A stretch of 64,000 nt of DNA. Origin: Amoebidium appalachense. Its lineage: Eukaryota > Protista > Ichthyosporea. The position numbers and the translations under genes are program-made. How positions within the stretch are numbered: the first letter of the stretch is position 1; the number at the start of each line of letters is the position of its first letter. The notes beneath the pieces were generated by a model that was not told the DNA's origin, searched no databases, and worked only from the letters and a program-made list of their open reading frames with translations. Location of the stretch: positions 14,603,615 through 14,667,614 of the forward strand of contig CAVNZM010000002.1 of NCBI GenBank assembly GCA_963693365.1, in the 5' to 3' direction. This document shows positions 13,365 to 59,100 of this stretch, one piece after another.

Positions 13365-16300
13365 ATGGCATACTACGATCAACTCGTATCTCGCTGCCCC
13401 TTTCGCATAGAGCACAGCAACGAGAAAGGCAATCACGTGGTAGCAGCACGTGACTTGCGTGCGGGAGAACTGGTTCTGGACAACCTTCCCTATGCGTCAA
13501 TACTCCAGCACTGCAACAGCGACGGTAAGAGCTTTCCTTACCTTTATTTGTGTGCTGACCCCTTCCCGTCGGCTCAAGTATGAAAGTTATAAGTTGGTGG
13601 GTCAGGTTGCTAGCATGTACCTTGGATCCTCTTTCTCCTCTCCTTCTTTTTTATTATAAATCTTTATTTTCCCTTAGGCAGCCGAAGCAGCAGCCCCCCC
13701 CCCCCCCCCCCCCTCTTCCCCCCCTCCCCTCCCCCCCCGCCTCTCCCCCCTGCCTCCCTCCCTCACCTCCCCCCCAACCGCACCCACTTTCCACCCTGCC
13801 TCCCCTCCCTCCTCCCTCTCTCCCTTCCGCCCCTTTCCTCCTCCTCCCCTCCCCCCATCCCCCTTCTCCTGAACCCCCGAGCCTGGCCTGTTGATAAATA
13901 CCACACACACACACACACACACACACCCACCCACCCACCCACCCCACACACACACACACACACACACACACCACGTGTGTTTGTATATTCCTCCATCTGG
14001 TCCCCTCCGGTGTCGACGTCTTTGTTGCTTCTGTGTACGCACAGCTGATGATTTCTCTCTTCTCTTTATGAAAAACCACATATGCGTACAATTTTGGCTC
14101 TCCGTCCCTATGTCCCTCACCAACTCCCGTGTTTGTTCTGCTGACCCCCGGCCGCCCCCGTCCCCTATCCACCCGCTGCTTTTGATTGCGATTGCATCTA
14201 TGTTCCTTGGATCCTGTCGAATTCCCACTTTCATTCTCGACTTATCAATCCTTGTCTCTCACATATCACTCCATCTTTTTATCTGCCTTTGATACTCTCG
14301 CACTTCCTTTCATATTCTGACTACCCCCACTCCACCTCCAAGCAACCCCTCCCTCCCTCCTCCCCCCCCTCCCCCCCCCCCCCCCAGCGCTCCCTTGAAG
14401 GGTAATTCTTTCAGCTTTCCCCCGACCTGAATTAATTTCCAAGCAGACAAGTGTCACCGGTGCTTCCAAAAACCCAAGTCCGGTGAAATCCTTCAGCGTT
14501 GTTCGGCATGTCGTTATGTTCGCTACTGTGGGAAGGCATGCCAAGCAGCAGACGTATGTCCCTGCCCCCTTCCCCCCCCCCTCCCCCCCCCCCCTCCGGG
14601 CATGGTTGCTCTGTGTCGTGCATCTGTAAGCACATACGCGTTTTTCGCTGCACTGCATTAGTTTGCACACACATCTTCACCGTTCTGCTCACCTTGCTTG
14701 CATAAGCAACCCTGCTCGTCTTTGATCAAGACGGGTTGACCCACCCAAGTTCAGTTGATGCTGCTGTCTGAGTTGGAGCGTCGTATATACGCGGGCTAAG
14801 GGGTCGAAACTCAGACGCAATTGATGACTTGGGCCCTCCCTGAGGATGGGCTCTGCTTATGACGCATACTGTGCGCATGGCTGATGTTGCATACTTGAAT
14901 GTTTGCCTTTGCATGTGTCCTGCACCATGCTTTTCATCGTGTATGCGTACTTCGCACTGTGTTCCGCATTCAAACCCCCCCCCCCCTCCCCCCTCCCCCC
15001 TCCCCCCTCCCCTCAGCCCCCCCCAAAAGAAAGAAAGAAAGGAAAAAAGAATAAGAAGAAGAAGAAGAAGAAGAAGGTAACGGAGAGATGTGGTGGTGTG
15101 TGTGTGTGTGGGGGGGGGGGGGGGGGGGGGGGGTTGTAGGGGGAGGGGAGGGCCGGAGGGGAGGGGGGGGAGGGAAGGAAGGTTAGCGGGTTTGTTAACC
15201 ACATATAACACCCCCCCCCCCCCCCCCCCCCCCCCCCTTCTCATACACTTACACAAGGAACCATCCCAACATCCCTCCCGTACCACCCTTTGAGCGTCTC
15301 CACTCCTTCGTCTCAACTTGTGTATCCCCCACACACTCACAAACACACACACGCACAAACACACACACACACACACACACACAAACACACACAACAAACA
15401 CACACGTTCACGTACACACACACAGTGGAAGGAGATACACAAACTAGAGTGTCCAGGTGTGCAGAGTGTATCCTCCACGTCCATACCCGATGTAGCCTTG
15501 GATGAGCTTAGACTTCTTCACCGCTCTCTTCTGGTTCGCGCAATGGATTTGCATAGTTCCCCTTATACGGTAATAACCCCCCTTCCCTCCTTTTCCCCTC
15601 TCCCCCCCCCCCCCCCCCCCCCCCCTCCCCCCCCAAAAAAAAACTCCCCACCCACGGCCCGTACCTCTCCACTTCTGTCTGCCCGTCCCCCCCCCCCCCC
15701 CCCCCCCCCAAAAAAAAAAAAAAAAAAAAAAAAAAACTCTTTCTCAATTTACATCACGTGCGCTTGAGCTCTTCTTTCAACACGCTTTCACATTCACACC
15801 TTTGTGTACATGAATGCCCATACTCACTTTGCTCTTGTAATTGCACAATCACATTGGCTGCGGTGTATTTATGATAAATACTACCCCCCCCCCCCCCCCC
15901 CCTCCCCCCCCCCCCCCCTTCCCCCACCAAAAAAAAGAAAACCAACCCCCCCCCTCCCCCCTCTGTCTGTACCGTCTTCCTTACCTGTACCACGTTCTGC
16001 CTTCTCTACTCACTGTTTCTTTCTTTTGGTGTCCCCCTGCCCCCCCCCCCCCTCCCCCCTCCCTCCGAAAAGGTAAAAAAGAAAAAAAGAAAGAAAGAAA
16101 AAAAAAAAGATACCACCATCGTTATCTGACCACCTTAAAACCCCGCATCTATCCCAAAACTGTTCTACGACGCTTGACTACGTTCATGTACCCATGCAAC
16201 CATAAACACACCCACATTCATGCAACCATAAACACACACACTCTCTCATGCAACCATAAACACACACACTCTCATGCAACCATAAACACACACACATTCA

Positions 16301-56100: not shown

Positions 56101-59100
56101 GGGGGGGGGGGGGGGGAAGCAGGTGTGTGCCCGCGCTTATGTGTCTGCTTGGGCGGGAATGGAAAGTCCCTGTAGAAGGGTGAAGAGGGTGAAGGAGATG
56201 TGTTTTGTTGTTTCCTGTTTGTCTTCATACATGTTCGGTACCCAATGTCTGACCAGCAACGTGGGCACAGGCTGAGTGTGCAGAAGGGCTGGGAGCTGAT
56301 GGCAATCCTCCTAACAATCTTCCCCCCTCACACATCTTCACCCCCTTTGTTGAGTCCTTCATCTACTGGGCAATGAAAGGCATGTCATCCTCATTCTATC
56401 TTTGAATATTATACCATTTTGCTTGTTTGTGTTGTTGTTGTTGTTGTTGTTGTTTCTCTCCTTTCGGCGTTTAAGCCACTCAATCCTAAAATTCAGGCTG
56501 GATTTCCGGTTCGTATTCATGCAGAGCACAAGGTTTAACTAAAGAAGAGTAAACAAACGAGAATTTTCTGTGAAACTGCCCCTCCTCCCCAGTTTCTTGC
56601 TTTTCTCTATGCCTCTTTTCCACCCAAACCTGCTTCTCCCAATACTGCCCTGGGGACCTCATTCCCTCCATCCCTTTTCTCTGTGTGTAGAATTCGTGTG
56701 ACTATATTGTAGCATATGGTCTTTGATCTGGTTTGGGTCTATTGCAGCATATGGTCTTTGGTGTGGTTTGAGTAACTGAGTACACCTTTGTTCGACCCCT
56801 TCCCTCCACCTCAATTCTCTCTAACATGTCTAAAACTCATGGTATTAGATTGTAGCAAACATGCCTGAAAATAGGTTGGGTCACTGACATAATTTTTTTC
56901 TTTTGCACAGAGGCCGAGGTTAAGCAGGCCACGTCAGCCCACTACAAGGAAGTGTACCAGTATGCTTCCTTCTCCCTGAAGAAGTATGTGTACCTTTACT
57001 ATCCCCACTCCCCCTTTCAACCCCCCCCCCCCCTCCCTCCCTCCTCCCCTCCCCCCCCCCCCCCCCCCCCCCCCCCCCCCCCCCCCCCCCCCCCCCCCCC
57101 CCACCACCACCACCACCACCACCACCCACCCACCCTGACCTCTCTACCCGCCCACCAACCGTATCCCATCCTCCTATACATATTTGGTTTACCGACGAAG
57201 TCCCATGCTGTGCACAAGAGCCTCTCCTCTTTCCATACTCCCCCTTCCCCTCCCCCCAACCCGCTCCCTTCCCCTTTCTCTACCACGTTCCCTCTTTCCA
57301 TATCCCCCCCCCCCCCCCCCCATGTGTACTTCGTACATTATGACGCATTCAACCCCCCCCCCCCCCAAAAAAAACCCACCACCCCTGCCCCTTTCTACCT
57401 GCCTGTGTTTTTTTTCAATAATCTTGGGCCCCTAAGTGCAAACAACTGCAAACAACGACATAAAGGCACGCACGGACGCACGCATGCTAGCACGCACACA
57501 TGCACATCACGTGTATGCCTGTGCCAATGCATCACGCCACATGCATTCACACACACACACACACGTACAACGACCTCCCATTGCCTTTATTGCACACAAT
57601 CAGGCCACTCTGCACATGGCACATTCCAAAATCGGTTACTGCGTGTGTCCGTTAAAGCGATTGCCGAACCGAATGACCTTTGGCCAATCACAACCGACTA
57701 AAGAGGAACCAGCTCCCATGTGATTGGAGCAAAACAGTATGCCTTGTATAAGGGACCATTGCCTAACACCATGTTGCAAACACCCACAGGCTTAGGAGGA
57801 TGGCTGAGACGGGTGTCAAGCGGGGGAAAGAGCCATCTGTGGAGGAGATTGAGTATGCAAAGGTATGTTCATCGATAAACACCTTCATAAAACCCCACAT
57901 TCAACAGAACTTGGTCGAGCAAATTACACATGTTTGACGGCTTTACCCTCTTTCCCCACGGAGCAATATGGGTTTGTTTGTTTTTTCTCTTTTTTTCCCT
58001 CCTTTTTTTGGTCCTTGGCACTTGTTTACGGCCCTCAAAACCCCCTTTTCGATCCACAGAACTGTTAACACCCTTGCAATATAAGCACCTTCCCCCTCTT
58101 TATCCCCACGGAGCAATTGGTTGTGATACCCTCTCCCCTAATTATTTTGTAAAGCCTTTGTAACCCTCTCGTTTCACCACAGCACTCGGTAAAGCACCCC
58201 TCTATCCCCTCGTGCTCGTGTATGGTCCTTAAGCCCGATTTCTCCATTGCAGCAGAACTTATCGACACCGCGGAATCTGTAGCACTTTCCCTCTATCACC
58301 ACATATCAATCTGCTGTGTTTTTGTACCTAATGCTTGTTTGGGGCCTTCTAACCCTTTTTTTTGCACCTTAGAACTCAGTCAAGTACCCCAACATATTTG
58401 GCGCTTCCATATATATCCCCAGGGAGCAATGTGTTGTGGCTTATGTCCATAATGATTGTGTAGCACCTTCTAAGCCCGGTCAATCGCACCACAGAACTTA
58501 GTCAAGAGTGTGAGCAATATGTTGTTTTTTTAGTGCCTTGTGCTTGTGTAGTGCCTTCTAACCCTTCTATTTCCCCTTAGAACTCAGTCAAGCACCCTAG
58601 AACGTTTGGCACCTTCCTCCTTTTCCACGCTGAGCAATCTGTTGCATTTTCTTGTGTACAACCTTCTAACCCAGCCATTTCTCCGCTAGAACTCCGTCAA
58701 GCACCCCCAGCTTGTTTGGCGTCTTCCTCTCAACACCACGGAGCACTCATTTGCATTGTTTTTGTATGTTAAGGCCACTAACCCAACCATTTCCCCCTAG
58801 AACTCGGTCAAGCACCCCAGCATGTTTGGGACGACCATTGAGGATGTAATGGGCATGCAGCACGAGACTAAGCCCCTGCTGCAGCTGCCCTGGTGTGTCA
58901 CCACCCTGTGTGATGCCATTGTCAAGTTGGGTGGTCTGACGGCAGAGGGCATATTCAGGTATGATATATCATAGTATACCCTTGTGGGGGGAGGGGAAGG
59001 GGTGTAGTTGGTGAAGGTGTGGTTGGTGTTTGTTGCTTTCTATTGGGTTTTCTGATGATTGATGTGATGTGTATTGGGATTGGGAAGGTGTGTGTCTATG

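What the first reader, a model, noticed from the sequence alone, without database searches (positions are those of the whole stretch)
14728..57352. Multi-subfamily, 5'-truncated element that lives inside poly(C) tracts and always lies in host-sense orientation
Seen: about 11 related intronic inserts. Subfamily A is at 14728+, 32588- and 46278-; subfamily B at 46519-, 46965- and 50828+; divergent copies are at ~18881+, ~32323-, 33087-, 33176-, ~33760- and 57321+. A and B copies share a fixed 3' end (..GCATTCAAA) running straight into a C run, have variable 5' ends usually abutting another C run, and show no poly(A) tail or TIRs. Every copy found is oriented like its host gene (SMYD +, ARF6 -, SCOC -, ARHGAP39 +). 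Known: a fixed 3' end with variable 5' truncation is the signature of target-primed reverse transcription, and some non-LTR elements target microsatellites or telomeric repeats. Inference: a retroposon family specialised on poly(C)/poly(G) homopolymers as its target or tail, which might also propagate the many C runs in this genome. I know of no described equivalent.
Basis: partly seen in the sequence, partly recalled or inferred. Interest (0 to 1): 0.82.

Follow-up and report, generated by a model that had tools for sequence, protein, structure and literature searches.

The report
Poly(C)-targeting non-coding retroposon family
A short non-coding repeat, at least 380 bases long, sits between runs of C bases at many places, mostly in introns, and is likely a retrotransposon copied in by a borrowed reverse transcriptase, much like the C-run-targeting Chlamys elements already described in green algae.

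Summary
The family is real. Six near-identical copies in two subfamilies and up to eleven divergent ones fill 3.4% of the window. All six strict copies end in CATTCAAA(A) plus a C run, and start at a C run. Public runs show very high copy number. They also show the unit is at least 380 bp (14595-14974, not from 14728), and that many copies are cut at an internal C7 and run straight into a genomic C run. This fits target-primed insertion into existing poly(C). No reverse transcriptase lies in the window and no genome was held, so membership is untested. 'Always host-sense' mostly follows the sense bias of the C runs themselves (67:25), and one copy opposes both neighbouring genes. The element does not explain most C runs: 112 of 132 clusters touch no copy. 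Still unexplained: a hairpin-plus-pseudoknot core conserved between subfamilies, and one contig suggesting head-to-tail units. Verdict: new member of a known kind, probably in a new host lineage.

The parts
14595..14974 (+). Subfamily A, longest copy (380 bp), in an intron of the SMYD-like gene; C12 before, C12+ after
   Evidence: 5' part 14596-14727 is high-copy in runs X2, X4, X15
14700..14865 (+). Structured core shared by A and B: hairpin 14714-14736, long hairpin 14744-14833, pseudoknot 14736-14742 with 14801-14807, hairpin around 14835-14852
   Evidence: z -3.0, same on the reverse strand; 4 of 30 pairs changed on both sides, 4 sequences only
46278..46488 (-). Subfamily A, 5'-truncated copy; its 5' C run is the 3' C run of the B copy at 46519
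32588..32710 (-). Subfamily A, 5'-truncated copy, ends CATTCAAAA then C16
46519..46636 (-). Subfamily B, truncated just 5' of the internal C7
46965..47161 (-). Subfamily B, 5'-truncated copy between C12 and C12
50828..51027 (+). Subfamily B, 5'-truncated copy between C22 and C15, with an internal deletion of about 15 bp
33760..33861 (-). Divergent copy, 75% to B
   Evidence: E=1.8e-9
32323..32415 (-). Divergent copy, 75% to B
   Evidence: E=4.3e-9
33087..33140 (-). Short 3' fragment, 83% to B, between C runs
   Evidence: E=1.5e-8
57322..57352 (+). 31-bp 3' fragment between C18 and C14
   Evidence: E=2.2e-5
32716..32790 (-).
   Evidence: E=3.4e-5
33176..33290 (-). Divergent copy chained 5' of 33087
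   Evidence: E=4e-4
35797..35900 (+).
   Evidence: E=1.6e-4; E=0.0096
22368..22445 (+).
   Evidence: E=0.0014
18686..18758 (+).
   Evidence: E=0.05
18866..18979 (+).
   Evidence: E=0.59
32812..32925 (-). Doubtful divergent copy
   Evidence: E=1.4

Best explanation
This is a non-coding, high-copy repeat of at least 380 bp whose copies sit between C runs with a fixed 3' end and variable 5' ends, and it is likely a non-autonomous retroposon inserted into existing poly(C) runs by target-primed reverse transcription, likely using the enzyme of a Chlamys/Naiad-type Penelope-like element that was not found here. Inferred steps: the partner's endonuclease nicks a poly(C)/poly(G) run; reverse transcription starts at a fixed site on the RNA (CATTCAAA); it often stops early; the upstream target C run joins where the element itself has C's, so one run becomes two. 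The element's polarity follows the run, and runs are C-on-sense in about 73% of cases, which accounts for most of the host-sense bias. New C runs at each copy invite later insertions, giving the same-strand chains seen. The conserved hairpin-pseudoknot core is likely an RNA signal for the enzyme or for processing.
For: Fixed 3' end plus C run: 8 matches against 0.05 expected. C runs on both sides of 6 of 6 strict copies. Among the rows shown, a loose end at 47077, the first C of the internal C7, continuing as a C run, in 37 contigs of X1 and 54 of X2 (1088 rows not shown). Summed depth rises from the 5' end inward, 1.1e5 at 14610 to 5.5e5 at 14708 in X2 (B-type copies join at 14692, so part of the rise is not truncation). 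11963, 8964 and 3220 contigs laid in three runs. Three 100% identical B copies point to recent activity. No Pfam hit in the element-overlapping frames tested and no RT or endonuclease family in 148 plus 24 ORF pieces. A 286-nt contig of depth 17 in X14 carries the A 3' part (record 9) and, if it is the same record, the A 5' part (record 1) in head-to-tail order about 89 nt apart. Literature match: (C)n preference, 5' truncation, head-to-tail non-autonomous forms, no canonical hammerhead (PMC8557442); short intronic (C)n insertions (10.1101/2022.05.23.493040); internal start of reverse transcription without a poly(A) tail (PMC11167929). G-U pairs in 8 of 30 modelled pairs favour an RNA form.
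Against: No autonomous partner was seen and no genome was held, so the Penelope-like assignment rests on insertion pattern alone. No empty site was recovered. No inverted 5' copy, often seen in these elements, lies in the window. The head-to-tail contig is one record, matched across two calls by length and depth only, and could be two copies chained through a C run. Chlamys is reported from green algae, spike mosses and slime moulds and animal Naiads prefer (TA)n, whereas this host has an animal-like gene set. Sense orientation keeps a marginal excess (p about 0.03-0.04).
Confidence: 0.6

Rival explanations
1. A SINE-like retroposon mobilised by a microsatellite-targeting LINE (APE or RLE type) that has switched to (C)n.
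For: Fixed 3' end and 5' truncation fit any target-primed mechanism. Waldo, Mino, Kibi, Koshi and Dong target ACAY, AC, TC, TTC and TAA repeats (PMC3812793 passages). A GGTCGAAAC stretch is one base off a Pol III B box (consensus recalled).
Against: None of the LINEs in those passages targets (C)n. No tRNA, 5S or 7SL head. Only A2-4 at the 3' end. The possible head-to-tail unit suits Penelope-like elements better.
Confidence: 0.22
2. A non-autonomous rolling-circle DNA element (Helitron/Helentron or Replitron type) with one fixed and one variable end and tandem units.
For: One fixed end, possible tandem junction, hairpins; MINE-1 helitrons insert at microsatellites.
Against: Ends lack the TC...CTRR signature (recalled) and the last 113 nt show no special fold (z -0.3). 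Variable ends join at element C's, and the helices use G-U pairs.
Confidence: 0.09
3. The C run is the element's own tail or template: the enzyme writes poly(C)/poly(G) at insertion and seeds the genome's C runs.
For: Every strict copy ends in a C run; the window has 190 runs of 8 or more C or G; Penelope-like RTs are related to telomerase.
Against: C runs also lie 5' of copies, which needs a pre-existing run. 112 of 132 clusters touch no copy, and AA before clusters is 13 against about 11 expected once 7 copies are removed. Four SDR introns open with GT and a C run without any copy.
Confidence: 0.06
4. A host functional intronic RNA (snoRNA-like) rather than a mobile element.
For: Intronic, mostly sense, conserved fold, TGATGA and CTGA words; abundant in a run that holds spliced contigs.
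Against: No Rfam family; most copies are truncated through the fold; copy number is very high.
Confidence: 0.03

Closest known systems
Non-autonomous Chlamys elements (Chlamys-N4_cRei with Chlamys-9_cRei; MRC1), Penelope-like, PMC8557442 and 10.1101/2022.05.23.493040
   Same: (C)n target, intronic, short through 5' truncation (median 128 bp there; 31-380 bp here), no canonical hammerhead, head-to-tail forms reported.
   Different: No sequence link tested; partner ORF not found; host appears not to be a green alga; a conserved pseudoknot core is not mentioned in the sections read.
Naiad Penelope-like elements (PMC8557442)
   Same: 5' truncation, microsatellite bias, up to tens of thousands of copies, no hammerhead.
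   Different: Prefer (TA)n; described from animals; autonomous, 3.4-4.4 kb.
Non-LTR retrozymes (10.64898/2026.07.22.740005, abstract only)
   Same: Short non-autonomous derivatives of Penelope-like elements, tandem forms.
   Different: Defined by a hammerhead ribozyme, not found here; depleted from introns, whereas this family is mostly intronic.
Microsatellite-targeting LINEs Waldo, Mino, Kibi, Koshi, Dong (PMC3812793, passages)
   Same: Target-primed insertion into simple repeats.
   Different: Targets are ACAY, AC, TC, TTC, TAA, not (C)n; autonomous.

Membership tests
Chlamys/Naiad Penelope-like (non-autonomous) | Partner ORF with N-terminal GIY-YIG, CxC motif and RT with IFD | not testable with these tools
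   No genome held; no RT or endonuclease family in 172 ORF pieces of the window
Chlamys/Naiad Penelope-like (non-autonomous) | 3'-end similarity to an autonomous family | not testable with these tools
   No partner sequence available; pattern scans found no true relatives
Chlamys/Naiad Penelope-like (non-autonomous) | Insertion preference for (C)n | tested here: met
   6 of 6 strict copies between C runs
Chlamys/Naiad Penelope-like (non-autonomous) | Frequent 5' truncation with fixed 3' end | tested here: met
Chlamys/Naiad Penelope-like (non-autonomous) | Pseudo-LTR or head-to-tail tandem units | tested here: inconclusive
   One X14 contig matched across; window chains are separated by C runs
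Chlamys/Naiad Penelope-like (non-autonomous) | Adjacent inverted 5'-truncated copy (frequent, not obligatory) | tested here: not met
   None among the self-matches of the window
Non-LTR retrozyme | Hammerhead core CUGANGA...GAAA | tested here: not met
   No match on either strand of A (also permuted) or B; no Rfam hit; about 70 nt of a possibly longer unit and the B 5' part were not visible
tRNA/5S/7SL-derived SINE | Pol III RNA-derived head | tested here: not met
   ARAGORN 0 genes; Rfam 0 at gathering score, only low-complexity hits by E-value
tRNA/5S/7SL-derived SINE | A-rich or tandem-repeat tail of its own | tested here: inconclusive
   Only A2-4 before the C run; whether the C run is tail or target needs empty sites
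Helitron | 5' TC, 3' hairpin and CTRR end (features recalled) | tested here: not met
   3' end is CATTCAAA with no special fold; true 5' end unknown
HDV-like ribozyme | Double pseudoknot with P1 5' strand first and a catalytic C in J4/2 (features recalled) | tested here: not met
   A has GG-hairpin-GGCTAA-helix, but the partner of the would-be P1 strand lies 3', B lacks the C, and Rfam gives no hit

The most novel reading that the evidence does not exclude
The element is a telomerase-RNA-like parasite: a pseudoknotted RNA with a C tract after CATTCAAA that pairs with a nicked G strand and lets a Penelope-like RT add G repeats, so tens of thousands of insertions have lengthened and multiplied the poly(C) runs that now mark the introns of this genome; its core may be an undescribed ribozyme or RT-binding fold.
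Probability: 0.08. Interest if true: 0.85.

Novelty: new member of a known kind. Interest (0 to 1): 0.42.

Why it matters
It is a young, very abundant (C)n-targeting family in a host with an animal-like gene set, where this targeting was not reported in the papers read. If the partner is Chlamys-type it widens that clade's range; if not, (C)n targeting arose twice. A 380-450 nt non-coding substrate with a fixed 3' end and a conserved fold would be a compact system for testing how Penelope-like enzymes choose microsatellite targets and start sites, which PMC8557442 names as open. It also matters for annotation: the family fills 3.4% of this window.

Tried and rejected
No whole genome is held, so no genome-wide tabulation. 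Empty-site test: X1, X4 and X14 did not cover the unique flanks; X2 covered only 45990-46202 and 14400-14556; no contig bridged an insertion; holes prove nothing. Pattern scans: 0 hits in metagenome contigs, 0 in viral contigs; a second metagenome pattern gave 10 loci, all chance 19-22-bp matches in 56-70% GC DNA without C runs. Rfam and ARAGORN found no family. Whole-copy folding is not better than shuffles (z -0.16, -0.67, -0.94); only the core is. Hammerhead, HDV-like, tRNA-head and C/D snoRNA readings were considered and not met. A protein search with an SDR exon did not place the host: 16 hits of 42-49% identity, one named. Three look-ups of earlier findings returned nothing. Paper searches: ichthyosporea + Penelope + transposable element + SINE gave 0 papers; retrotransposon + poly-C + target-primed + homopolymer + insertion gave 1, on L1 (listing only). 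One holozoan protist genome paper (PMC11244446, passages) has 0 mentions of Penelope or SINE; its supplements were not opened. A motif from the B-type 5' part is absent from the window. 61 of 209 ORF pieces were left out, mostly known exons and their other frames.
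Full report
Observation. The window holds 97 C runs and 93 G runs of 8 or more, so adjacency to a C run needed testing. 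After masking simple sequence, the family stands out: B copies at 46519-, 46965- and 50828+ are 100% identical over 106-169 bp, A copies at 14766+, 46282- and 32593- 94-97%. Divergent copies are 67-90% identical to B over the aligned part. The 17 copies cover 3.4% of the window. The end motif plus C5 occurs 8 times against 0.05 expected. All six strict copies are followed by C7 or more; five are directly preceded by C5 or more and the sixth by C31 and one G; chance per position is 0.0025 and 0.0051.

True extent and abundance. No genome was held, so I used public runs; 20 of 24 listed hold part of the stretch. Laid on 45990-47175, runs X1, X2, X4 and X14 gave 11963, 8964, 3220 and 12 contigs; in X2 summed depth on the copies was mostly 1e5-7e5 against 22 on unique flank. 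The tool warns that this is no copy number; with 6 strict copies per 64 kb and 136-223 million letters of contigs, an order of 10^4 copies is my estimate. Laid on 14400-14790, depth is high from 14596 on and 6.6 on the exon: subfamily A is at least 380 bp and begins directly after a C12 run. Subfamily B has its own 5' part, at least 148 nt upstream of the position matching 14692 (X14). A 286-nt contig of depth 17 in X14 appears in both calls, with letters 230-286 on the A 3' part and 1-140 on the A 5' part, which would be a head-to-tail junction with about 89 nt between. I could not read it, and the identity of the two records rests on length and depth.

Junctions. Among the rows shown, one of the best supported loose ends lies at 47077, the first C of the element's internal C7, and continues as a C run on the element strand (37 contigs in X1, 54 in X2; 1088 rows not shown). 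Window copies 32588, 46965, 50828 and 57322 likewise break where the longer copies have a C. Joining by such microhomology to an upstream target run is what target-primed insertion into an existing run predicts (inference). No empty allele was recovered, so the split of one run into two is not shown.

Orientation. Strands were checked: Arf minus, WW-MyTH4-RhoGAP plus, DUF2205 minus, and a 2442-nt spliced contig of X15 joins the exon ending 13524 to 14446-14553. All in-gene copies are sense. But several form same-strand chains through shared C runs (46519 to 46278; 32812 to 32716 to 32588; 33176 to 33087), leaving 10-11 independent loci by my grouping. C-run clusters that touch no copy are 67 sense to 25 antisense within approximate gene spans (two of the spans rest on ORFs without Pfam hits), which gives p=0.03-0.04 for all sense. 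The copy at 35797-35900+ opposes both neighbouring genes and follows its local C run; 22368+ is ambiguous. So polarity is tied to the run; a small extra sense bias is not excluded.

Source of C runs. Only 20 of 132 clusters touch a copy, and AA before clusters is 20 against 11.2 expected, 7 of them copies. Four SDR introns and one SMYD-like intron open with GT and a C run within about 20 nt (a sixth intron checked does not). The element uses the runs; it does not explain most of them.

Coding capacity and RNA. No RT or endonuclease family was found in 148 plus 24 ORF pieces. Rfam and ARAGORN give nothing real, and no hammerhead order exists on either strand. The core 14700-14865 folds better than shuffles (z -3.0; the reverse strand equally), and homologous helices exist in A and B, one crossing the others as a pseudoknot. 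On four sequences 98.9% of cells pair and 4 of 30 pairs change on both sides, 23 of 500 shuffles reaching this; the structure was drawn from these sequences and there are only two subfamilies, so this is weak support. In X15, whose RNA status is a guess but which holds spliced contigs, element depth is 1e4-4.5e4 against 120 for the exon; this does not show independent transcription.

Comparison. PMC8557442 (abstract, passages, sections 9, 10, 15, supplement rows) reports (CA)n and (C)n targeting in Chlamys, 7 of the 21 family rows shown being (C)n, with 5' truncation, pseudo-LTRs, head-to-tail non-autonomous forms and mostly no hammerhead. 10.1101/2022.05.23.493040 (passages) reports the Chlamys-9/N4 pair making insertions of median 128 bp, all intronic, at (C)n. 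PMC11167929 (abstract and main text) shows a Penelope-like RT starting at internal RNA sites not homologous to the cut DNA, which explains a fixed end without a tail and means pairing to a C tract is not required. PMC3812793 (passages) lists LINEs for other repeats, none for (C)n. The retrozyme preprint was seen as abstract only. The family therefore works like a non-autonomous Chlamys element; membership cannot be tested without the partner ORF. The host was not identified; ARF6, SCOC and a WW-MyTH4-RhoGAP gene in an intron-rich genome suggest a relative of animals or fungi (recalled, untested).

Verdict. A real, young, very abundant (C)n-targeting retroposon; a known kind of behaviour, likely in a new lineage; the orientation rule and the C-run-seeding idea are largely not supported; the structured core is the open point. 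Interest 0.42.

Noticed in passing
window 1-7010: Two short-chain dehydrogenase genes back to back on opposite strands; exons 93.5-96.9% identical while introns do not align. Best protein hits are 42-49% identical, mostly unnamed metagenome proteins of about 253 aa; horizontal origin not tested.
   Followed up: partly
window 4223, 5224, 5571, 6313, 14554: Five of six introns checked open with GT and a long C run within about 20 nt, with no element; C runs are 73% on the sense strand. Possibly a splicing signal of this genome.
   Followed up: partly
window 14597-14610 and 14705-14718: 14-nt inverted arms (86% complementary) close the A-specific 5' module of the element.
   Followed up: no
window 47115: A G-to-T variant on the element strand in 35-47% of depth in three runs, in the loop just before the pseudoknot strand.
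   Followed up: no
window 47122 and 14777, run X14: Contigs share the element's 5' core and then run on for 255 or more different letters: possibly a third subfamily or a longer parent element.
   Followed up: no
window 50859: The B copy at 50828 lacks about 15 bp that form one strand of the long hairpin, yet is otherwise identical to 46965.
   Followed up: no
window 36957-37569: A minus-strand gene whose last exon appears to run through two overlapping frames; frameshift, hidden intron or assembly error; no Pfam hit.
   Followed up: no
window 58101-58832, 48275-48466, 34453-34575, 38554-38737, 36298-36936: Short local duplications of 36-180 bp unrelated to the family.
   Followed up: no
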